DNA of 45,326 bases from a phage. This document shows, piece by piece, positions 2,090 to 24,861 of this stretch. Made by a program: the position numbers and the translations under genes. Below the pieces are notes generated by a model, which saw only the letters and a program-made list of their open reading frames with translations, was not told where the DNA came from and did no database searches. The stretch lies in sequence record PX405663.1; one strand, written 5' to 3'. Numbering within the stretch: the first letter of the stretch is position 1; the number at the start of each line of letters is the position of its first letter.

Positions 2090-2419
2090 ATGAATGTAAA
2101 CGACGCAATCGAAATGTTAACGAAGACTGTTAGCAGTGAAACAAGCCGGTCATGGGCTTATACCGATGCCGTTGGGGCGGTGTTGTTTGAAATCGAACGT
2201 CTGCGACTTACCGAAAAAGAATTGCGCGCGAAGCTGGAATTACTCAACGGTACTGCAGCAAGCAAGCTGCAAAAGCACAATGAAGAAATGGAAGAATACA
2301 AAAAACAGGTTATCCGTTTGCGCGCCGAGGGCAAATCCTGGGCAATGATTGCCGAGTTGACTGGGATTAATCAGAGCACAGTGCGCTCCTGGGTACGCAA
2401 TAATAAAACTTCTAAGTAA
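2090..2419 (+). CDS. coiled-coil plus C-terminal helix-turn-helix DNA-binding protein (109 aa)
   Basis: ORF track; GAGGG SD; C-terminal SWAMIAELTGINQSTVRSWV resembles an HTH. Confidence 0.55.
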   Translation: MNVNDAIEMLTKTVSSETSRSWAYTDAVGAVLFEIERLRLTEKELRAKLELLNGTAASKLQKHNEEMEEYKKQVIRLRAEGKSWAMIAELTGINQSTVRSWVRNNKTSK

Positions 2420-2429
2420 GGCCACGGCA

Positions 2430-4694
2430 ATGAGCTTAATTAAATTCGCTGTAACACGACCCGCTAAAAAAGGCGAAAAAGCCAGGGCGGAAAACTTCCA
2501 GATGACCACCGATGAATTTTTCGAATTTATCAAAGATGCGAAAGAAATCTCATCGGTGCATATCAACAAGACGGAAGATAAAGCCGAGTATGCGCGCCGC
2601 AAGCGTAAGGCCGATGGCATCGTAGCATATACCAGTGACGGCCTTCGCCGCAAGACCAGTGCGGTGGACCGCTCGATCCTGTTCTTCGATATCGACCGTA
2701 CCGACACCCGCACCTTACGCCGCTGCCGTAAGGCGTTCATTGACGCGGGTCTGGAACATGTGTTTCACACCACTACCGGCGACCGTCACCCGCTTAAAGG
2801 TGGAACGCGTTGCGCTCGCTTCCTGGTACTCACTGACAAGCCTGTACCGGCTGAAGACCTGGGCCGCGTCCAGTATGCACTATTACACCAACTGGGTCTG
2901 TCAGATGTGGACTTCGACGACTGCACGAAAGACACAAACCGCCTGATGTACCTGCCCCACCAGCAGTCTGTTATTAAGTGCCACTATGGCAAGCGCGCCC
3001 GCGTCCGTCGTCTGCTCCGCCTGGCTGACAAGCTGGGGGTGGAAAAAGAGGAAGTACGCCGCGAGCTTACCCAGGGCGACGACGCAGTGGCAGACGGTAT
3101 TCTGGACTGGTGCTTCCAGGCAGGATTCGAGGAGTTATCTTCCGGGCGGGGCTATGAAGTGCCGTGCCCGAACGAACATCTGCACAGCGGCGAAGGGTCC
3201 ACCGCCATAATGGTCAAGGATGGCGAGATCCGTTTCAAGTGTATGCACACCGGCAACGAGTGTTGCTCGGAACTGAATAGACACCAGCACCTGGCGCTAC
3301 GTCTTATCGGGATCCCGGACCACCTGAACGTCGAGCCACACAATATGTCCCGTAAGCAAATCGCCGCCATCCTTCCGGGGCTGGACGACGAGGAAGTCGA
3401 ATCCTTATATGAACATATTGTTGATGCGGTTGGAGACGGCGAAGAATACGGCGTGTGCACCGATGCGGATCTGGATAACGAGCCGGTTGCGCTGTTCAGT
3501 AAGCACGACCCGATTATCGAGGGGTTGATTAACTTTAAATCGACCTGGTACATGGCGGGTGAGTCGAATATCGGTAAGTCTTTCTATGTGCTGGGCCAGA
3601 TGGGCGCGGTTGCCGCCGGTATTCCGTTTGGTGGCGCGAAGGTCGTCCAGTCTCATTGCTTCTATTTCGACGCGGAAGGTGGCGAAGCCTCTAACCAGCG
3701 TAAAGAAGCATTGCAGATTAAATATGAGCACGACCTGGACAAGCTGCACATTATAGACCTGCAGTCACGCGGCTGGGATATCACCAGCAAATCAGGCTTG
3801 CGCGAAGTTATCAGCTTTATCAACCGCACCGCTAACGGCGAACCGGTTGGCCTGGTGGCGTTCGACTCACTCAACCAGACTGTTGCGTTGCGGTCCGCTG
3901 ATGCTAAACCGTTCGACGAGAACAACGCCAGCGATATGGGTGAAGTGGTCAAAGCGCTGAAGGCCATCGCGGAAAATACAGGTGGCAGTGCGGGCGTCAT
4001 CCACCACCCGGCTAAAGGTGCAAACGGCAGCAGAACGCCACGCGGGTCCGGCGCGCTGCATGGTGCTGTCGATTCTGCGTTCTTCCTGGAACAGCCGGAC
4101 GACAACCAGCCCGGACAATTGAACCTGTATCATGAGAAGTCACGTAACGGCATCAAGCAAGCGCCGCGCGGCTTCGTCCTGCTCAAGTGCAAGGTGAAGG
4201 TGGATCTCCGCAAGTCAGAAGCGTTCGAGGCGCACCAGTCCACCAGCACCGGGCCAGACTTCGGCGACGTGGTTGCCGGATGGGACGTCAAGCCGATTGC
4301 CTCCACGCCACGCGACGAGACTCTCTACCTCGTACCGGTTGCCCTGGCACCTTTCGCTATTGAACAGGCGAAGGCAGCAGGCAAGGCCGCGGTTAAGGAA
4401 GAGAACACCGCCGGACCGCGCAACGAAAAAGAGAAAGTGCTTTATGCGGCACTGGAAAAACTGATGGAAGATAACCCGGACCATACTGGATTCAGTAAAT
4501 CGGCAATTGTCCGCCAGGCGGGACTCGCGAAAGGCGGCACTTCGACGAAGGCAATCGACGATATGGTGGAGCGCGGGGTGATAGGTTTTTACACCGATCC
4601 GCACACCGGGGCCATCTATGGGTCGTCTAATTTGGTCATCAAATCGGATATCCCTATCACGCTTTCCGCGACCGATGACGATTTAAAAGATTAA
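2430..4694 (+). CDS. DNA primase-helicase (primase-polymerase-like N-terminal domain, zinc-binding region, P-loop NTPase/helicase C-terminal half)
   Basis: 754-aa ORF; FFDIDRTD and HVFHTTTGD primase-like motifs; CPNEHLHSG...CMHTGNEC zinc motif; Walker A GESNIGKS. Confidence 0.75.
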   Translation: MSLIKFAVTRPAKKGEKARAENFQMTTDEFFEFIKDAKEISSVHINKTEDKAEYARRKRKADGIVAYTSDGLRRKTSAVDRSILFFDIDRTDTRTLRRCRKAFIDAGLEHVFHTTTGDRHPLKGGTRCARFLVLTDKPVPAEDLGRVQYALLHQLGLSDVDFDDCTKDTNRLMYLPHQQSVIKCHYGKRARVRRLLRLADKLGVEKEEVRRELTQGDDAVADGILDWCFQAGFEELSSGRGYEVPCPNEHLHSGEGSTAIMVKDGEIRFKCMHTGNECCSELNRHQHLALRLIGIPDHLNVEPHNMSRKQIAAILPGLDDEEVESLYEHIVDAVGDGEEYGVCTDADLDNEPVALFSKHDPIIEGLINFKSTWYMAGESNIGKSFYVLGQMGAVAAGIPFGGAKVVQSHCFYFDAEGGEASNQRKEALQIKYEHDLDKLHIIDLQSRGWDITSKSGLREVISFINRTANGEPVGLVAFDSLNQTVALRSADAKPFDENNASDMGEVVKALKAIAENTGGSAGVIHHPAKGANGSRTPRGSGALHGAVDSAFFLEQPDDNQPGQLNLYHEKSRNGIKQAPRGFVLLKCKVKVDLRKSEAFEAHQSTSTGPDFGDVVAGWDVKPIASTPRDETLYLVPVALAPFAIEQAKAAGKAAVKEENTAGPRNEKEKVLYAALEKLMEDNPDHTGFSKSAIVRQAGLAKGGTSTKAIDDMVERGVIGFYTDPHTGAIYGSSNLVIKSDIPITLSATDDDLKD

Positions 4695-4794
4695 ATTTTG
4701 CGCGCATTGGTTGCCATTTTGCGTGCTTTTAGTCGGTCGTATTGGTTGCCGTGTAGTGTAAATATAGTGAATAGTTATGCAATAAAACTGCATA

Positions 4795-4965
4795 AAGTAA
4801 GCGGGACAAAAAGCGGGACAACCAGGGGGCGGGACAAAGCGGGACAGCACCCCTGTCCCGCCCCGGATGACGCGGCCTGGAGAGGAGCGGGACAGCGGGA
4901 CAGCACCCCAGTCTTTCAGACTAGACGGGGGGTCTGGCACCCCCCTCGTCTGAGACTGCATAAAA
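4795..4965. repeat. noncoding array 1: GCGGGACA(A/G) repeats in direct and inverted orientation ending in a conserved 51-bp imperfect hairpin (4908..4958)
   Basis: At least 7 copies of GCGGGACA within about 120 bp including the palindrome GGGACAGCACCCCTGTCCC; near-identical copy of the terminal element at 22101..22150. Confidence 0.8.
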
Positions 4966-5112
4966 TCCAGGATTGCATAATACACGGCAGCGTGATGCGA
5001 ATTGCGGTCGTCGACGAACTAGGCAACCAATACGAGTTGCAGAATGGTGGGTGAAAAATGCAGTTTGCAGTTTCAGCAGATAGCGATCAACTTTTTCATG
5101 CGCGTGATTGAT

Positions 5113-5169
5113 ATTGGTTGCACCCACCCTGGCACCCTGCTATATTGGTTGCACACCAACATGAGGACC
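5113..5169 (+). promoter_or_regulatory. tandem TATTGGTTGCA promoter-like motifs with TATATT -10 and conserved leader
   Basis: TTGCAC, 17 nt, TATATT; 27-nt stretch TATATTGGTTGCACACCAACATGAGGA is identical to the minus-strand sequence at 16214..16240. Confidence 0.55.
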
Positions 5170-20352: not shown

Positions 20353-21078
20353 ATGGGTTATCAACTTCCTAACGGGTCCAGCGTCCAGATTGGGTCCGTA
20401 CTGGGCAACGGCATCGCTGTTACGGCAGCTACCAACGCCGCCGCGTCGATCTCTGATCTTACGAAAGGTTGCGTTATCACCTGCGCGGCTTCTCATGGCC
20501 TGAAAGTTGGTGACGTGGTTATGTTCACTAAGACCCCGTGGGTCCGTGCGCTGAACCGCGCGTTCATCGTGGGCAAAGTGGCGACTAACGACGTTACACT
20601 GGCGCGCTTCGATACTCAAGACGTCACCAAATACCCTACCGGCGCTTTCAGCACAGGCACACCGGGTGAGGTGGTGAAGGTGTCGAGCTTTGTCGACTTC
20701 CCGTATATCACTAACGTTGCCGTGTCGGGTGGCGACCAGCAGACAACCACTTTCCAGCCGTTGCAGGTGAATACTGCGATCAGTCTGAATACCACGAAAA
20801 ACCCGTTGGTCCAGACCTACACTTTCACCCACGACGAAGAAGACCCGATCCGCCCGATTCTGGAAGACCTGGACGACACACAGAAAACCACTGTGATTAA
20901 GTTCACTAACCCGGCAGCGGCGAGCGGCAAAGGTGAGATCCGCATTTACCCGGCTAAGGTGTCTTTCCAGAAGATTCCATCGGCTGAAGTAAACAACGTG
21001 GAGACAGTGGAGGCCACGCTGACCATGCAGTCCGATATGGTTATTTACCGTAAGGACTTGGTCGAGGCGCTGTCTTGA
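20353..21078 (+). CDS. major tail protein (lambda V-like position)
   Basis: 241-aa ORF, GGAG SD, directly upstream of the chaperone and tape measure genes. Confidence 0.6.
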   Translation: MGYQLPNGSSVQIGSVLGNGIAVTAATNAAASISDLTKGCVITCAASHGLKVGDVVMFTKTPWVRALNRAFIVGKVATNDVTLARFDTQDVTKYPTGAFSTGTPGEVVKVSSFVDFPYITNVAVSGGDQQTTTFQPLQVNTAISLNTTKNPLVQTYTFTHDEEDPIRPILEDLDDTQKTTVIKFTNPAAASGKGEIRIYPAKVSFQKIPSAEVNNVETVEATLTMQSDMVIYRKDLVEALS

Positions 21079-21146
21079 TTTGGTCGCTTAAATAGCGGGT
21101 GATAATATGGGGCCAGCACGGCCCCTTTTTATTGGAGAATACTACA

Positions 21147-21509
21147 ATGGCTAAAGCACCACTCTTTACACTTGACCCTAAGCCTACCTTTAAGCTGCCG
21201 ATTGAGATCCCGCGCCCTGGTGAGAACGAACCGGGCAAAATGACGTTTACCGTGCGCCACCGTCCGATCGACGAGTTTTCGCAGACCATGCAGGATACTG
21301 AGCGCAAGTTGTCGGAATATGACGACAATGATCCTGACGGCTTTAACGTTATGGTCGAGGCCATCATGCACGTCGCAGAAGGCTGGAATCTGCCGGACGA
21401 ATTTAACGCGGAGAACGTCCGCCGCCTGGTGGTCAACTATCCGCGCGCGTTCGGCGTGTTCCACACTTCGTACTATCTCGAACTGATGGGATTGCGTGAA
21501 AAAAACTAA
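21147..21509 (+). CDS. tail assembly chaperone (lambda G-like)
   Basis: Track ORF 21099..21509 trimmed to the ATG after GGAGA; ends in slippery A_AAA_AAC. Confidence 0.6.
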   Translation: MAKAPLFTLDPKPTFKLPIEIPRPGENEPGKMTFTVRHRPIDEFSQTMQDTERKLSEYDDNDPDGFNVMVEAIMHVAEGWNLPDEFNAENVRRLVVNYPRAFGVFHTSYYLELMGLREKN

Positions 21510-21823
21510 TTGAGGCGGCGCGACGCTTTTATGGCCCGCCGCCACCCTCCGAAGATTTAGCCGCGAGTTTATGGGGGGCGACCCCTGAAGACGTTTGCCC
21601 CCCGATTGCACTATGGCCCGACAATGCGAAGGTAGTCGCAGTCTTCACAGATTGCTCCACGCAATGGCGCACCGGATTCGGTGGCGCATACGGCATCGAC
21701 TACGGTGTACTGGAATGGCTATTTAAGATGCACGGCATCGAAAACGCGCAACGTGCGTTTAAAGATATCAAGCTAATGGAACGCGTTGCGCTTGATGAAA
21801 TGGCGCGGCAGAACCCCACATAG
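21147..21823 (+). CDS. tail assembly chaperone frameshift product (lambda GT-like) via programmed -1 ribosomal frameshift at A_AAA_AAC (21500..21506)
   Basis: The -1 frame from 21506 is open for 105 codons to TAG at 21821..21823 (hand translated: LIEAARRFYGPPPPSEDLAAS...MARQNPT); position just upstream of the tape measure gene matches the conserved G/GT arrangement. Confidence 0.5.
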
Positions 21824-22160
21824 TTAAGCGGGACAGGCGGGACGTCCCGTTCTGTCCCGTTCCGTCCCGCCTCCTGCAAAACTGCATACTTACGCACCAC
21901 ATTTGCATAAACTAAAAGCGGGACAGGGGTGCTGTCCCGATCCGTCCCACCCCAAAAATGTGAATGTCTATTCAGTTTTAGTGCATAAAACAAACGGGAC
22001 AAAAAGCGGGACAGAATTGGGCGGGACAAAGCGGGACAGCACCCCTGTCCCCGCCAGTGCTGCCGCGGGTTTTAGCCAATCAGGACAGGCGGGACAAAGC
22101 CCAGTCTTTCAGACTAGACGGGGGTCGATGGCCCCCCTCGTCTGAGACTGAATAAGGTTT
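21824..22160. repeat. noncoding array 2: more than 15 GGGACA-core repeats in both orientations plus the conserved 51-bp hairpin (22101..22150), inserted between the tail chaperone and tape measure genes
   Basis: GCGGGACAG, GCGGGACG, CGTCCCG, CTGTCCCG and others; the palindrome GGGACAGCACCCCTGTCCC is shared with array 1. Confidence 0.8.
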
Positions 22161-22218
22161 GTTTTAAATTCGCTGATACAATGACCGACGGCAACTGCAT
22201 AAAAAGGGGGACTGCATA

Positions 22219-24861
22219 ATGGCAGATCAGGCAGCGGGCATCACGCTCAAGGCGGACGTCGCGCAAATTAAAACGGCTAATACTGTGCTGGACACATTTG
22301 CGCAGAAATCCGAGAACACAGAACAGAAAGTAAAAAAATTAAACGACACCCTCGGCAAGTCGAAAAAGGTTACTGGCGACGCCGCGGGCGGAATGGAAAA
22401 GTTAGCGACTGAATCGCAGCGCGCCGCCGACGGCATGACGAAACAGGAGCGACTCGCCAGCCGATTAGGCATGTCGACCAAAAACCTGGGATTTGCTTCA
22501 CGGAACGCGGCATTCCAGTTACAAGATATTGCGGTAACGCTTGAGATGGGTATGCCGGTGCACCGCGTCATGCTTCAGCAGTTACCACAGCTAACCGGCG
22601 CATTCGGCGGATTAGGTAACACGCTGCGTTATGTTGCGGGCTTCCTCGGCCCAGTAGGGATCGGACTTGCGGCAGTAACGGCGACGTTAGGCGTGGGCGT
22701 GGCAATCACGTCACGGGCAGAGAACCAGGTAGCCGCGCTTAATAAGACGCTGGCGCTGTCCGGTAATATCTCCGGCCTCACAGCTAACCAGATCCTGGTG
22801 CTGTCCGAGAACGCTGAGCGCATGGGCGGGTCATTTCGCAAGACGCGTGACACAATCCAGGCGCTGGCGGCGGCGGGTGTGAAAGCGGGTGGTGACTTCG
22901 GCGCATTGGCTAAGGTAGTTAATGACTTTGCGAAGGTGTCCAGCCAGCCGATCGAGGATGTGGTAGCGGCGGTGGCGAAGCTGTCAACCGACCCCGTTGG
23001 CGGACTGCGTGCGCTGGCGGATAAGTATCACGTCGTAAACGAAGCGCAGATCCAGCAGGTACAGTCGCTTGTTGATGCGGGTCGTGAGACAGACGCAGTT
23101 GCGTTGGCTAATAAAACAGCCGCTGCGTCGTTCACTAGCATGACCAATGAGATCAAGACGAACATGGGAACGCTTGAGCGGTCTATGAACGTCGTCACAT
23201 CGGCAGCGAAATCTATGTGGGACGCCATCCTGGATGTAGGCCGCGCGCAGTCCTCCAATGAATCCGAGATGAAAGCGCGCGAATCACTGCAGCGGCTGAC
23301 CACTGCTTACTATGCCGAGATGAAAGCGGTAAACGCTGCCGGTGGGGTAATGACTGAAGCGCAGAAAGCACGTATTAACATGCTTTACAGCGAACTGGTC
23401 GCCCAGGAAAAAGTGGTGGCATCGCTCACCCTGCGTAACCGTGCTGAGCGAGACAACGCCCGCGCCGCAGACGAATCCGCAAAGGCGAACGAGGAGGCCA
23501 ACCGCACTGCCCGTGACCGCGCCGCGTTCGAGAAGGAATACGCCACCAACGCTAAGAAACGCGCCGACGAGATCGCCCGTCTCAATTTGCTGAATAAGCG
23601 CGGCGTTATCGACGAGAAAGAGCTTGCCGAGGCGGTGAAGCAGGTAAACGAGCGGTACAAAGACCCAGCCCCGAAGAAGGCCGCCGCTGTTCGCGTGGAT
23701 GCCGGTATGAAAATGCTGGAAGTCGCACGGAGCGAACTGGCCCAGCTTCGAGAATCCGGCAAGCAGATCGAAGCCAACGCATCGACGCAGACCCGCACGC
23801 AACGCGCTCAAGCGGCCTTAAACAAGCTGATCGCGGATAATGAGCAGTTAATCGCCGCAAGCAAAGAAAGGGCGCTAACGGCAGCAGAAAAGCAGCAGAT
23901 GGTCGAATTCGGACGCGTGAAGGAAGTGCGCGAGCAGATCGTCGAAGAAGCCAAATTGCTGGACGCGAAAGAGAAGCAGGTTAAGGCGCACGCGCAGATC
24001 GATGCCTTCGTTAAGAACCAGAACGCCGAACTAAAAGCCACCGCCGCGGGGTATGCGCTTTCCACTCGCGAAGCGGCAAACCTGCGCGAAGAATTGCAGC
24101 TAATTGACCGCCTGAAGCGGGTTGGCGCTAACGATACCGATATTGACAAGGCGGTGTCTAAGCTGCGAGAAGTGCAGGAAGCACAGACCGGCGCTAACGC
24201 CTCGTTATGGGATGGATTCAGTCGCGGGCTTAAAGATAGCGTGGATGAAATGGGTAACGGATATACGCAGATGGCGTCGCTCACGAAATTCACATTCAGC
24301 GCTATGCAAGACACGATGAACGAGTTTTTCGAGACTGGCAAGCTGAACGCAAAGGATATGGTTAAATCCATCCTGAGCGAACTAATCAAGCTGGCTACCT
24401 CGCAGGCGTTCAAGTCCATCGTTAGCGCTTTCGGTGGCGACGGCGGCAAAAACGGATTGTTCGGCGCTATATTCTCTGGCCTCACTAAGAATGCGGACGG
24501 CGGAGCGTACGCAGGAGGCAATCTCGCGGCCTATTCGGGGAAAGTCGTAAGCCAGCCTACCTTTTTCAGTTATGGCGTCCAGGCGTTCGCTAAGGGCGCT
24601 GGGTTGATGGGTGAGGCTGGACCCGAGGCCATCATGCCACTGAAGCGCGGGCCGGACGGGAAACTGGGCGTTGCCGCGTCTGGCGCAGGCGGTGGTATGG
24701 TCGTGACGACTAACGTTTACACGGGGACCGGTAAAACGGATACCAGTGTCAGCGGGCCGGACCCCCGTACTGCGCAAGCGTTCGGCAAGCAAATCACCGA
24801 GGCGGTGAAGGCCGAGATCGTGAAGGCTACGAAACCGGGTGGTGTACTTTACAAACGATGA
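22219..24861 (+). CDS. tail tape measure protein
   Basis: 880-aa Ala/Gln/Lys-rich coiled-coil ORF; synteny. Confidence 0.85.
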   Translation: MADQAAGITLKADVAQIKTANTVLDTFAQKSENTEQKVKKLNDTLGKSKKVTGDAAGGMEKLATESQRAADGMTKQERLASRLGMSTKNLGFASRNAAFQLQDIAVTLEMGMPVHRVMLQQLPQLTGAFGGLGNTLRYVAGFLGPVGIGLAAVTATLGVGVAITSRAENQVAALNKTLALSGNISGLTANQILVLSENAERMGGSFRKTRDTIQALAAAGVKAGGDFGALAKVVNDFAKVSSQPIEDVVAAVAKLSTDPVGGLRALADKYHVVNEAQIQQVQSLVDAGRETDAVALANKTAAASFTSMTNEIKTNMGTLERSMNVVTSAAKSMWDAILDVGRAQSSNESEMKARESLQRLTTAYYAEMKAVNAAGGVMTEAQKARINMLYSELVAQEKVVASLTLRNRAERDNARAADESAKANEEANRTARDRAAFEKEYATNAKKRADEIARLNLLNKRGVIDEKELAEAVKQVNERYKDPAPKKAAAVRVDAGMKMLEVARSELAQLRESGKQIEANASTQTRTQRAQAALNKLIADNEQLIAASKERALTAAEKQQMVEFGRVKEVREQIVEEAKLLDAKEKQVKAHAQIDAFVKNQNAELKATAAGYALSTREAANLREELQLIDRLKRVGANDTDIDKAVSKLREVQEAQTGANASLWDGFSRGLKDSVDEMGNGYTQMASLTKFTFSAMQDTMNEFFETGKLNAKDMVKSILSELIKLATSQAFKSIVSAFGGDGGKNGLFGAIFSGLTKNADGGAYAGGNLAAYSGKVVSQPTFFSYGVQAFAKGAGLMGEAGPEAIMPLKRGPDGKLGVAASGAGGGMVVTTNVYTGTGKTDTSVSGPDPRTAQAFGKQITEAVKAEIVKATKPGGVLYKR

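What the first reader, a model, noticed from the sequence alone, without database searches (positions are those of the whole stretch)
21824..22218. Second, larger paralogous GGGACA array inserted between the tail chaperone (G/GT) and tape measure genes
About 400 bp of noncoding sequence carries more than 15 GGGACA-core repeats in both orientations (e.g. GCGGGACAGGCGGGACGTCCCG..., GCGGGACAGGGGTGCTGTCCCG), CTGCATA(A) boxes and the same terminal hairpin as array 1. In lambda-order tail modules G/GT and the tape measure gene are normally adjacent, so a large structured noncoding insert here is unusual; it could be a late promoter/antiterminator site, a second origin, or a packaging-related site.
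Basis: partly seen in the sequence, partly recalled or inferred. Interest (0 to 1): 0.75.

Follow-up and report, generated by a model that had tools for sequence, protein, structure and literature searches.

The report
Second replication-origin-like repeat array in phage tail genes
The 395-base gap before the tape-measure gene of this Dhillonvirus-type coliphage holds a conserved copy of the short-repeat array that follows the phage's primase-helicase gene, so it is most likely a second (possibly the main) replication origin, with a small promoter for the tail genes at its end.

Summary
Bases 21824-22218 are a noncoding gap between the G/GT tail chaperone and the tape-measure gene. It carries 14 GGGAC/GTCCC cores against 0.36 expected, TGCATA boxes, and a 49-nt hairpin. 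Its 3' half is a 79%-identical paralog of array 1 (4767-4965), which starts 108 nt after the stop of the 754-aa primase-helicase.

The gap is not a recent insert. All 159 Dhillonvirus records have it. More distant relatives (eiAU, a metagenomic contig) also have two gaps, and each pair shares its own lineage-specific repeat.

GGGACA arrays with the same layout sit at the 3' end of Prim-Pol/AAA_25 helicase genes in 42 of 49 unrelated viral contigs and in an integrative element. The layout is direct repeats, a GC hairpin, then inverted repeats.

The window's helicase ends in a predicted winged helix. In array 2, opposite-facing pentamers flank two AT-rich spacers, as in SaPI pri-rep-ori origins.

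Best reading (about 0.55): an iteron origin or cis-replication region, plus an invariant extended -10 promoter for the tape-measure gene. Main rival (about 0.2): binding sites for a phage transcription regulator. No binding or replication data exist. I rate it a new variant of a known kind.

The parts
21099..21823 (+). Context: tail assembly chaperone G (21099-21509) and its -1 frameshift extension T (to TAG 21821-21823). The slippery heptamer A AAA AAC is at 21500-21506.
   Evidence: PF08748 for G, PF08809 for T.
21828..21870 (.). Iteron block A, GC-rich and palindromic. It has 2 forward GGGAC (21830, 21839) and 3 reverse GTCCC (21844, 21854, 21864; the reverse copies are 10 bp apart).
   Evidence: DNA hairpin -15.4 kcal/mol, z -4.0. 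AT fraction 0.26.
21873..21917 (.). AT-rich spacer 1 (62% AT) with two TGCATA boxes: CTGCATA at 21882-21888 and TTGCATAAA at 21903-21911.
   Evidence: The boxes are conserved in 18 relatives.
21918..21950 (.). Iteron block B, with 1 forward GGGAC (21920) and 2 reverse GTCCC (21934, 21944). It is an inverted copy of the 3' part of block C (33 nt, 88% complementary).
   Evidence: (repeat I1).
21953..21993 (.). AT-rich spacer 2 (73% AT) with the boxes TGTGAATGTCTATTCAG and GTGCATAAAAC. It is flanked on the left by two GTCCC and on the right by GGGACA copies, so the iterons face in opposite directions. This is the candidate DNA-unwinding element.
   Evidence: It is paralogous to the AT-rich stretch 4752-4799 upstream of array 1.
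21994..22052 (+). Iteron block C, with four direct CGGGACA (21996, 22008, 22023, 22033; spacing 12, 15 and 10 bp) and one inverted TGTCCC (22046).
   Evidence: The forward cores are invariant in 18 relatives, whereas the inverted copy varies.
22053..22098 (+). GC-rich spacer containing the invariant CAGTGCTGCCGCG, followed by iteron block D (AGGACAGGCGGGACA; GGGACAGGCGGGACA in relatives).
22102..22150 (.). Long imperfect hairpin shared with array 1 (4909-4958). The stems are invariant and the loop varies among relatives. A homologous hairpin closes the pre-tape-measure gap of phage eiAU.
22174..22182 (+). Extended -10 promoter-like element TGATACAAT. It has no good -35 hexamer. It lies in a roughly 30-nt segment that array 1 lacks. 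The predicted transcription start is near 22189.
   Evidence: Invariant in 18 relatives. Absent from array 1. The two-hexamer scan found nothing. Promoter function is inferred.
22193..22221 (+). Tape-measure 5' leader: two CTGCATAA boxes (22195-22202, 22212-22219), Shine-Dalgarno AGGGGGA (22203-22209) and ATG at 22219.
4752..4980 (+). Array 1, the paralog. It consists of an AT-rich stretch with TGAATA/TGCATA boxes, four direct CGGGACA plus one inverted copy, two more GGGACA, the hairpin at 4909-4958, and two TGCATAA boxes. It begins 108 nt after the helicase stop codon.
2430..4694 (+). The 754-aa primase-helicase and candidate iteron-binding initiator. It has a primase-like N-terminus, an AAA_25 (RepA-like) core at residues 357-531, and a predicted winged helix in the last roughly 90 residues.
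2090..2419 (+). The 109-aa protein with a C-terminal HTH (HTH_23 / sigma-70 region 4 type), directly upstream of the helicase gene. It is the alternative candidate binder.
   Evidence: The same type is present in L168, the GGGACA lineage. HTH_3-type proteins replace it in L166 and L167, which have other iterons.

Best explanation
Array 2 is a cis-acting DNA element of the phage's replication system. It is an iteron array paralogous to the one that follows the primase-helicase gene.

Proposed mechanism, all of it inferred: the 754-aa primase-helicase, through its C-terminal winged helix, or a lineage-specific partner protein, binds the GGGAC(A) pentamers and hexamers. The clusters face each other across two AT-rich spacers (21873-21917 and 21953-21993). 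Bound protein melts these spacers and the helicase loads itself there, with one hexamer heading each way. The primase domain makes the first primers and the phage's family-A DNA polymerase extends them.

Array 2 has the full layout, with AT-rich centres flanked by opposite-facing iterons. Array 1 has only one side of that layout. Array 2 may therefore be the principal bidirectional origin, and array 1 a helicase-linked partner site, as in P4 ori/crr. Alternatively, both may fire.

The last 70 nt (22151-22218) add an extended -10 promoter and leader for the tape-measure operon. The gap therefore also restarts tail-gene transcription.
For: (1) Paralogy. Positions 21957-22155 align with array 1 at 79% identity. 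The shared features are the AT-rich boxes, four direct plus one inverted CGGGACA, two more GGGACA, and the hairpin.

(2) Array 1 is in the canonical place for an origin next to a rep gene, 108 nt after the primase-helicase stop.

(3) The linkage is general.
- A scan of IMG/VR for three spaced CGGGACA returned more than 120 stretches.
- The helicase is the only window protein with recurrent homologs in those loci.
- 49 loci carry a homolog, and in 42 the array starts within -220 to +54 nt of its stop codon. These arrays have 5-17 copies, and 39 of the 42 have copies in both orientations.
- The layout is conserved: direct repeats, two repeats, a GC hairpin such as cccctttagggg, then inverted repeats.
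- The same layout with GGGACA follows an AAA_25 gene in an int-HTH-helicase element on a Xanthobacter plasmid, where no late genes follow. It also occurs with other iterons in a Methylobacterium plasmid and in phage BcepGomr.
- The neighbouring genes are replication genes: SSB-like proteins and nucleases.

(4) Rep/iteron-style co-variation in orthologous, syntenic relatives: CGGGACA (Dhillonvirus and L168, helicase 68% identical), CTCGCAA (L166, 48%), GCTGCCAAC (L167, 46%) and GGGGAGA (Salmonella phage L162, 44%).

(5) Both gaps co-vary.
- eiAU shares CGCCCC(G) iterons in an 88%-identical 52-bp block, GCAACCAAC repeats, and the homologous hairpin between its post-helicase and pre-tape-measure gaps.
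- Contig SRR26384698_5047 shares CGCTGCCAACA, and GGGAT/ATCCC at 9-30 per kb against about 2 per kb in the background.
- L170 keeps a 13-core GGGAC array in front of the tape-measure gene.

(6) The helicase C-terminus is predicted as a winged helix. The core has pLDDT 80-89. The 50 best Foldseek PDB matches listed are predominantly winged-helix proteins (MarR-family PcaV/MepR, ORC4 WH, Rio2 wHTH, ScpB, linker histone H1), and helix 3 differs between iteron lineages.

(7) Purifying selection. The cores are 95% identical across relatives, against 87% for non-core columns of the array, and each of 18 relatives keeps 13-16 cores.

(8) The layout matches the experimentally characterised SaPI origins. 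These have penta/hexanucleotide iterons in 6-12 copies, an AT-rich centre with at least two iterons on each side pointing in opposite directions, and are read by the C-terminal winged helix of a self-loading Rep (PMC9371898).
Against: There is no experimental evidence of binding, melting or initiation for any member.

The binder is not identified. The small HTH gene upstream of the helicase also changes with iteron type.

The C-terminal domains of the Dhillonvirus helicase and of the environmental GGGACA-linked helicases are not detectably homologous (hhalign probability 0.8%). Either two unrelated domains read the same hexamer, or something else does.

The Foldseek matches are weak (E 0.02-0.4).

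Kagunavirus, and by its gene map Jerseyvirus, relatives with a helicase about 32% identical, have no noncoding gap after the helicase gene. Their next gene starts 15-18 bp downstream. The Kagunavirus locus has no GGGAC cluster near the gene.

Both arrays also sit at the heads of rightward operons, next to promoter-like sequence. The two-site, co-varying pattern would equally fit a lineage-specific transcription factor.

GC skew follows gene orientation and gives no information about origins.
Confidence: 0.55

Rival explanations
1. Transcriptional control region. The GGGAC(A) repeats are binding sites for a lineage-specific phage regulator, for example the 109-aa HTH protein at 2090-2419. This regulator would switch on or repress the promoters at the heads of two rightward operons: one after the helicase gene and one before the tape-measure gene. 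The hairpin would act as a terminator, RNase III site or stabiliser between the chaperone and tape-measure transcripts.
For: Both arrays end next to promoter-like sequence. Array 2 has the invariant TGATACAAT; array 1 has TGCATAAT followed by the conserved CGGCAGC.

The small HTH gene type co-varies with the iteron type.

In L170 the array stays attached to the tape-measure side when genes are inserted after T.

The HK578 annotators marked a rho-independent terminator in block A.
Against: The 109-aa HTH protein has no homolog in the 112 environmental loci, whereas the helicase does.

The genes upstream of those helicases are heterogeneous replication genes.

The same array follows the helicase in an integrative element where no phage late genes follow.

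Seven to seventeen sites in both orientations around AT-rich spacers are typical of origins, not of phage activator sites (my own knowledge).

The long hairpin has no adjacent T-run and was not called as a terminator.
Confidence: 0.2
2. Cis-acting RNA element. When transcribed from the chaperone operon, the repeats and hairpins would form a structured RNA. This could be a put- or nut-like antitermination site, a processing site, or a small RNA running from the TGCATA-box promoter-like units to the hairpin.
For: The local hairpins are significantly stable (z -2.4 to -4.3). Each AT-rich unit resembles a weak promoter (TGCAT-N18-CATAAA) placed about 6 nt before a GGGACA block (read).
Against: Rfam gives no match.

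The conserved positions are the pentamer cores, while partner positions in the hairpins change without compensation. Examples are the inverted copy in block C, and block B compared with block C.

The same motifs occur in both orientations and in arrays overlapping the 3' ends of ORFs.

No sigma-70 promoter with both hexamers was found.
Confidence: 0.07
3. Packaging or terminus-related site: a pac site or physical genome end.
For: Several independent records and contigs start or stop inside this gap. These are CHD5UKE2, UAE_MI-01, Kente, IMG/VR contig 3300045988_009799, and eiAU, which starts 221 bp before its tape-measure gene.
Against: Most records are linearised elsewhere, near the terminase genes.

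The breakpoints fall inside sequence that is repeated in the genome (the array 1 / array 2 paralogy, or the eiAU tandem ACAATGCAACCAAC). Assemblers tend to break at such places.

The arrays are 4.8 kb and 12 kb from the terminase small-subunit gene.

The environmental linkage is to helicase genes, not to terminase genes.
Confidence: 0.05
4. A functionless duplicate of the origin module, or a small mobile repeat element that happened to land in the tail operon.
For: It is a paralog of array 1. The closest full-length helicase relative examined in a complete genome (Salmonella phage L162) has one array only.
Against: It is kept in all 159 Dhillonvirus records, with the cores more conserved than the spacers. 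The same position is occupied in eiAU and other distant relatives by repeats that track the lineage's own iteron.
Confidence: 0.03

Closest known systems
SaPI pri-rep-ori replicons (Staphylococcus aureus pathogenicity islands; PMC9371898)
   Same: Both use short penta/hexanucleotide iterons in roughly 6-12 or more copies. In both, an array lies immediately downstream of the primase/helicase gene (array 1 here). Both have an AT-rich centre with at least two iterons on each side pointing in opposite directions (array 2, spacer 2). The initiator-helicase carries a C-terminal winged helix. The iteron sequence differs between lineages.
   Different: The helicase core here is AAA_25 / RepA-like (RecA fold), not the SF3/AAA+ type of SaPI Reps. 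There are two arrays 17 kb apart, and the one with the complete layout is not next to the rep gene. A conserved long GC hairpin is part of the module. Binding has not been shown.
Satellite phage P4 ori plus crr bound by the alpha primase-helicase (from my own knowledge: Flensburg and Calendar 1987; Ziegelin et al. 1993-95; Yeo et al. 2002)
   Same: P4 also has two separated regions carrying the same short iteron (TGTTCACC). One of them (crr) lies just after the primase-helicase gene and the other is several kb away. The iterons are read by a C-terminal winged helix of a multifunctional primase-helicase.
   Different: There is no detectable homology to alpha (no Pfam or PDB sequence match). The distance and genomic context differ, since this element lies inside a tail operon of a virulent siphovirus. 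Whether both sites are required is unknown here.
Bacillus phage SPP1 oriL and oriR bound by G38P (from my own knowledge: Missich et al. 1997)
   Same: SPP1 is a siphovirus with two paralogous initiator-binding regions. One is in the replication module and the other is far away among late genes.
   Different: The SPP1 initiator is a separate replisome organiser, not a primase-helicase fusion. The repeat types differ, and oriL lies inside gene 38.
Iteron oriV immediately downstream of repA in PIME integrative elements (bioRxiv 10.64898/2026.01.12.698999)
   Same: The origin is placed in the gap just after the rep gene, with direct repeats and AT-rich stretches. Function was shown by cloning repA-oriV.
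   Different: The Rep family and iterons are different, there is a single origin, and a DnaA box is present. DnaA-box matches are not enriched here.

Membership tests
Iteron origin of a self-loading primase/helicase initiator (SaPI type) | Short (5-6 nt) iterons, about 6-12 copies | tested here: met
   There are 14 GGGAC/GTCCC cores in 21828-22098, of which 10 are full hexamers, against an expectation of 0.36.
Iteron origin of a self-loading primase/helicase initiator (SaPI type) | The array lies immediately downstream of the rep/helicase ORF | tested here: not met
   Array 2 is 17 kb from the helicase gene. The feature is met by its paralog array 1 (108 nt after the stop) and by 42 of 49 environmental loci.
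Iteron origin of a self-loading primase/helicase initiator (SaPI type) | AT-rich centre with at least two iterons on each side pointing in opposite directions | tested here: met
   Spacer 2 (21953-21993, 73% AT) has GTCCC at 21934 and 21944 on its left and GGGAC at 21996 and 22008 on its right. Spacer 1 (62% AT) lies between blocks A and B. Array 1 has iterons on one side only.
Iteron origin of a self-loading primase/helicase initiator (SaPI type) | The initiator-helicase carries a C-terminal winged-helix DNA-binding domain | tested here: met
   The AF2 model of residues 636-754 has the topology H-beta-H-H-beta-beta, with core pLDDT 80-89. The Foldseek PDB hits are winged-helix proteins, but weak (E 0.02-0.4). 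This is a prediction only.
Iteron origin of a self-loading primase/helicase initiator (SaPI type) | SF3 / AAA+ helicase core | tested here: not met
   The core matches PF13481 AAA_25 (RepA-like, RecA fold) at E 2e-19.
Iteron origin of a self-loading primase/helicase initiator (SaPI type) | The initiator binds the iterons specifically and the region supports replication | not testable with these tools
   This needs EMSA or footprinting, plasmid origin assays, or marker-frequency analysis.
Bipartite origin (P4 ori/crr type) | Two separated regions share the same iteron, one of them next to the primase-helicase gene | tested here: met
   The pairing co-varies in eiAU and in contig SRR26384698_5047.
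Bipartite origin (P4 ori/crr type) | Homology of the initiator to P4 alpha (Toprim primase plus D5-type SF3 helicase) | tested here: not met
   Pfam, NCBIfam and PDB sequence searches give only AAA_25.
Bipartite origin (P4 ori/crr type) | Both regions are required in cis for replication | not testable with these tools
   Genetic test needed.
Intrinsic (rho-independent) terminator | A GC-rich stem-loop followed directly by a run of T | tested here: not met
   The 22102-22150 hairpin is followed by AATAAGGTTTG, and its array 1 copy by CATAAAATCC. It was not listed by the terminator scan. In the window, block A has TTCT where relatives have TTTT.
Sigma-70 promoter | -35 and -10 hexamers at 16-18 nt spacing, or an extended -10 TGnTATAAT | tested here: inconclusive
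   The two-hexamer scan found none in 21000-23000. TGATACAAT at 22174-22182 fits an extended -10 and is invariant in 18 relatives.
Known RNA family (Rfam 15) | A covariance-model match at gathering score | tested here: not met
   There were 0 matches in the whole window.
DnaA-box-containing origin | A cluster of TTATNCACA boxes | tested here: not met
   There were 23 matches at up to 1 mismatch in the window against 26.8 expected. Two are in array 2 and none in array 1.

The most novel reading that the evidence does not exclude
A whole clade of virulent siphoviruses (Dhillonvirus, Eiauvirus and their relatives) replicates from a bipartite origin. It consists of two co-evolving iteron arrays about 17 kb apart, and the more complete one lies inside the tail operon, just before the tape-measure gene. 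Origin firing could thereby be coupled to re-initiation of tail-gene transcription.

The module of GGGACA iterons plus a GC hairpin would be a widespread and so far undescribed origin type for SF4 (AAA_25) primase-helicases in phages, plasmids and integrative elements. The same hexamer would be read across very divergent initiators.
Probability: 0.3. Interest if true: 0.7.

Novelty: new variant of a known kind. Interest (0 to 1): 0.55.

Why it matters
No replication origin has been described for Dhillonvirus or Eiauvirus in the literature I could search. Annotators either mark this gap as 'hypothetical protein', 'terminator' or 'repeat_region', or leave it blank.

If the reading is right, four things follow.
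- It gives a testable origin for a phage genus that is widely used in defence-system and phage-therapy work.
- It explains why a large noncoding block is tolerated inside a tail operon.
- It supplies a simple sequence rule for finding origins next to AAA_25 primase-helicase genes in many uncultured phages and mobile elements: an iteron array with a GC hairpin at the 3' end of the gene.
- It warns phage engineers not to treat the chaperone/tape-measure junction as a neutral insertion site.

Tried and rejected
- Rfam at gathering score over the whole window gave nothing.
- The sigma-70 and terminator consensus scans around both arrays found no two-hexamer promoter, and the long hairpin was not called as a terminator.
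- GC skew follows gene orientation only and gives no origin signal.
- TGCATAA boxes read as DnaA boxes: TTATNCACA at up to 1 mismatch is not enriched, and only 2 matches fall in array 2.
- The 109-aa HTH protein as the universal binder: jackhmmer found no homolog in the 112 environmental loci.
- A shared C-terminal DNA-binding domain between the Dhillonvirus helicase and the environmental GGGACA-linked helicases: hhalign was not significant. The environmental group does share its own motif, W-R-x-x-F-Y ... (K/R)KAFxR.
- A long-range RNA or DNA stem between blocks B and C: block B changes in relatives without a compensating change in block C.
- Thirteen of the IMG/VR pattern hits are forward-only repeats inside ORFs. 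They are coding repeats and were excluded.
- Kagunavirus and Jerseyvirus relatives have no noncoding gap after the helicase gene. The linkage is common but not universal.
- Literature searches for GGGACA or TGTCCC iterons, Dhillonvirus promoters or repeats, and eiAU origins found no description.
Full report
**What the window is.** The window is a Dhillonvirus-type Escherichia coli siphophage. A 2-kb query around the finding matches 159 phage records, the best being phage Psq-1 at 95%. The matches include HK578, JL1, SSL-2009a and EP23. The gene order follows the annotated relative Pandora71.

**The observation.** The -1 frame extension of the tail chaperone ends at TAG 21821-21823. G runs from 21099 to 21509 and matches PF08748. 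The T part matches PF08809. The slippery heptamer A AAA AAC is at 21500-21506. The 880-aa tape-measure ORF starts at 22219.
- The 395 nt between them hold 15 GGGAC/GTCCC cores. One of these belongs to the Shine-Dalgarno sequence. There is also a degenerate AGGACA.
- The rest of the window predicts 0.36 cores in this length (P about 1e-19).
- CGGGACA is enriched in the window as a whole (20 copies against 6.3 in shuffles), and 16 of the 20 lie in two places, 4802-4902 and 21829-22096.
- TGCATAA boxes are likewise nearly confined to the two arrays.
- No ORF is conserved in the gap. Open frames differ in strand and frame among 18 relatives, and nine 1-nt indel columns occur.
- Rfam finds nothing.

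**Anatomy of array 2**, in order:
- Block A (21828-21870) has two forward and three reverse cores.
- AT-rich spacer 1 (62% AT) has two TGCATA boxes.
- Block B (21918-21950) has one forward and two reverse cores.
- AT-rich spacer 2 (73% AT) has two boxes.
- Block C (21994-22052) has four direct CGGGACA and one inverted copy.
- A GC-rich spacer follows.
- Block D has two cores.
- A 49-nt imperfect hairpin (22102-22150) folds at -13.4 kcal/mol, z -3.2.
- A 68-nt tail contains TGATACAAT (22174-22182), two CTGCATAA boxes and the ribosome-binding site.

From 21957 to 22155 the array is a 79%-identical paralog of array 1 (4767-4965). Array 1 lacks blocks A and B and the TGATACAAT segment.

**Conservation.** The gap is present in all 159 records, and 152 of them cover at least 80% of it at 80-93% identity. 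In an alignment of 18 non-identical copies, the pentamer cores are 95% identical and the non-core array columns are 87% identical. Each phage keeps 13-16 cores. The hairpin stems and TGATACAAT are invariant, while the hairpin loop varies. One caveat applies: the IMG/VR copies were fetched by an exact match to the 5' arm of the hairpin, so invariance of that arm is partly by construction. Hairpin partners inside the blocks change without compensation, which argues for constraint on the duplex DNA motif rather than on an RNA fold.

**The lead: what sits next to array 1.** Array 1 begins 108 nt after the stop of a 754-aa protein (2430-4694). This protein has an AAA_25 (RepA-like) core. It belongs to PHROG 3228, 'replicative helicase-primase', and has a primase-like N-terminus. 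A 109-aa HTH protein is encoded just upstream of it.

**Generality.** I scanned IMG/VR for CGGGACA-N2-8-CGGGACA-N2-12-CGGGACA. By my own rough estimate only a handful of chance matches would be expected.
- When all window ORFs were compared with these loci, only the helicase had recurrent homologs: 30 loci by tblastn and 49 by iterated HMM search.
- In 42 of the 49, the array starts between -220 and +54 nt of the helicase stop codon. These loci have GC 0.52-0.69 and 5-17 hexamers, and 39 have copies in both orientations.
- The relatives are Prim-Pol plus AAA_25 fusions, for example L088.
- The layout recurs: four to five direct CGGGACA at about 10-11 bp spacing, a spacer, two more, a GC-rich palindromic hairpin such as cccctttagggg, then two to three inverted TGTCCC.
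- Thirteen loci were forward-only coding repeats and were discarded.
- Two of a further five loci, inspected directly (L058, L092), have an approximately 700-aa Toprim/P-loop ORF ending at a similar array.
- The genes upstream of the helicases are varied replication genes, SSB-like proteins and nucleases, not a conserved regulator. The 109-aa HTH protein has no homolog there.
- The same layout with GGGACA follows an AAA_25 gene in an integrase-HTH-helicase element on a Xanthobacter plasmid, where no phage late genes follow.
- The layout also occurs with other iterons: CGCAACA in a 35-kb Methylobacterium plasmid, and GAAAAATAAAT in Burkholderia phage BcepGomr.

**Co-variation with the helicase lineage.** Full-length orthologs of the window's helicase keep the same synteny: small HTH gene, helicase, a 450-900 bp gap, then small genes, lysis genes and terminase. 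The repeat in the gap changes with the lineage:
- CGGGACA in Dhillonvirus and in L168 (helicase 68% identical)
- CTCGCAA, 9 copies, in L166 (48%)
- GCTGCCAAC in L167 (46%)
- GGGGAGA in a Salmonella phage (44%)

The Salmonella phage also keeps the GTGAATAGTTATG box of array 1 and a GC hairpin. This is the pattern expected of a Rep protein and its iterons.

**Co-variation of the two gaps.** This is the test that bears directly on array 2.
- In L170 (tape-measure protein 60% identical, GGGACA lineage), a 13-core array with the same hairpin precedes the tape-measure gene. It stays there even though two reverse-strand genes have been inserted after T.
- In contig SRR26384698_5047 (helicase 46%, tape-measure protein 52%), the 236-nt T/tape-measure gap shares three things with the post-helicase gap: CGCTGCCAACA, a CAACGGCAGCAT box just before the next gene, and GGGAT/ATCCC pairs at 30 and 9 per kb against about 2 per kb elsewhere.
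- In Edwardsiella phage eiAU (tape-measure protein 38%), the 897-nt post-helicase gap and the 518-nt pre-tape-measure gap share GCAACCAAC repeats and an 88%-identical 52-nt block. The block is built of CGCCCC(G) repeats plus an AT-rich stretch.
- The eiAU pre-tape-measure gap also ends with a hairpin homologous to the window's.
- The Salmonella phage has only the helicase-linked array.

A two-site system with a lineage-specific repeat is therefore old in this clade. Array 2 is not a recent insertion.

**The candidate binder.** The last roughly 90 residues of the helicase are conserved as helix, strand, helix, helix, wing. An AlphaFold2 model has mean pLDDT 72 and core pLDDT 80-89. The 50 best Foldseek PDB matches listed are predominantly winged-helix proteins: MarR family, ORC4 WH, Rio2 wHTH, ScpB and histone H1. 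The E-values are only 0.02-0.4. Helix 3 differs between iteron lineages: TSTKAIDDM, DRYKILKDL, KRRPAIQSL and NYKKVLEEL.

Two cautions apply:
- The small upstream HTH gene also switches type with the iteron. It is HTH_23 / sigma region 4 in Dhillonvirus and L168, and HTH_3 in L166 and L167.
- The environmental GGGACA-linked helicases share a different C-terminal motif, W-R-x-x-F-Y ... (K/R)KAFxR. That motif is not detectably related to the Dhillonvirus C-terminus.

Who reads the hexamer therefore remains an inference.

**Comparison with what is known.** SaPI replicons have been characterised experimentally. Their Rep initiator-helicase uses a C-terminal winged helix to read penta- or hexanucleotide iterons. 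Six to twelve iterons lie immediately downstream of rep. An AT-rich region sits at the centre with at least two iterons on each side pointing in opposite directions, and two hexamers are thought to self-load there (PMC9371898, read).
- Array 1 matches the position.
- Array 2 matches the internal layout better than array 1. Spacer 2 has GTCCC at 21934 and 21944 on its left and GGGAC at 21996 and 22008 on its right.
- The helicase core differs: AAA_25 rather than SF3.
- P4 (ori plus crr, the latter just after the alpha primase-helicase gene) and SPP1 (oriL plus oriR among late genes) are precedents for two initiator-binding regions in one phage genome. Both are cited from my own knowledge.
- An iteron oriV just downstream of repA has also been shown to function in PIME elements (bioRxiv 10.64898/2026.01.12.698999).

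**Transcription.** The long hairpin is not followed by a T-run and was not called as a terminator. No promoter with both hexamers was found. TGATACAAT fits an extended -10, is invariant, and is specific to array 2. I infer a promoter for the tape-measure operon with a start near 22189. The HK578 annotators marked the GGGACGTCCC palindrome of block A as a terminator. In the window the following T-run is broken (TTCT).

**Verdict.** The best-supported reading is a replication-origin-type iteron array, either a second origin or the main one paired with array 1, with a promoter for the tape-measure operon at its end. Confidence is about 0.55, because no binding or replication data exist and a lineage-specific transcription factor would produce the same two-site co-variation. 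I found no published description of these arrays. I rate it a new variant of a known kind, with interest 0.55.

Noticed in passing
window 1893; 4707/4742; 5023(-)/5114/5145; 16233/16247(-); 35881(-)/35893; 37548/37565(-); 40507(-); 44318/44334: A second repeated motif, (TA)TTGGTTGC, has 18 exact copies, mostly in pairs in intergenic gaps. At 5117-5145 it overlaps a good sigma-70 promoter (TTGCAC-N17-TATATT). It brackets array 1. In relatives it also accompanies the pre-tape-measure gap (L170; eiAU has 10 and 6 copies of GCAACCAAC in its two gaps). It is probably an early-promoter or operator motif.
   Followed up: partly
records MZ234029.1, NC_073074.1 / MW862804.1, OX460974.1, NC_042029.1; IMG/VR contig 3300045988_009799 (L035): Several independent genome records and one metagenomic contig begin or end inside the chaperone/tape-measure gap. 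Two of them fall within 11 bp of each other in the hairpin. This most likely reflects assemblies breaking at the array 1 / array 2 repeat, but a physical end was not excluded.
   Followed up: no
IMG/VR loci L050-L161; L165 4230-4360; L172 3586-3710; L173 3532-3650: There is a widespread module at the 3' end of Prim-Pol/AAA_25 (and Toprim/P-loop) primase-helicase genes. It consists of direct iterons, two more iterons, a GC hairpin with a TTTA/TATA-type loop (for example cccctttagggg), then inverted iterons. GGGACA is the iteron in at least 42 unrelated viral contigs and in a Xanthobacter integrative element. Other lineages use CGCAACA or GAAAAATAAAT.
   Followed up: partly
environmental helicase C-termini (alignment A5): The GGGACA-linked Prim-Pol/AAA_25 helicases share a C-terminal motif, W-R-x-x-F-Y ... 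(K/R)KAFxRA ... V-W, with invariant R, K and R. It looks like a helix-turn-helix plus wing. It is not detectably related to the Dhillonvirus C-terminal domain.
   Followed up: partly
L162 (PV593526.1) both ends: The Salmonella phage SaI_NFG_5579 record carries the same roughly 450 bp at both ends (the 3' end of the helicase gene plus the start of the array). The deposited linear sequence therefore overlaps itself.
   Followed up: no
one search hit list: OQ221563.1, MG065648.1, PQ843332.1: Records named 'Acinetobacter phage NJ01' and 'Campylobacter phage A144' are about 93% and 83% identical to this E. coli Dhillonvirus region, so their host labels look doubtful. Record P-GXEC-L2P5 is 88.6 kb, with 5-8 matching places, as if two genome copies were joined.
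   Followed up: no
window 21500-21509: There is a textbook -1 frameshift site for G/GT, the slippery heptamer A AAA AAC immediately before the G stop codon. Many relatives annotate the T part as a separate hypothetical protein or leave it unannotated.
   Followed up: partly
L150 1290-1340 and L151 10030-10160 (contig IMGVR_UViG_3300044823_000014): One unrelated viral contig also has two GGGACA arrays about 11 kb apart. One abuts the helicase gene and the other lies in a distant intergenic region. Second arrays are therefore not unique to the Dhillonvirus clade.
   Followed up: partly
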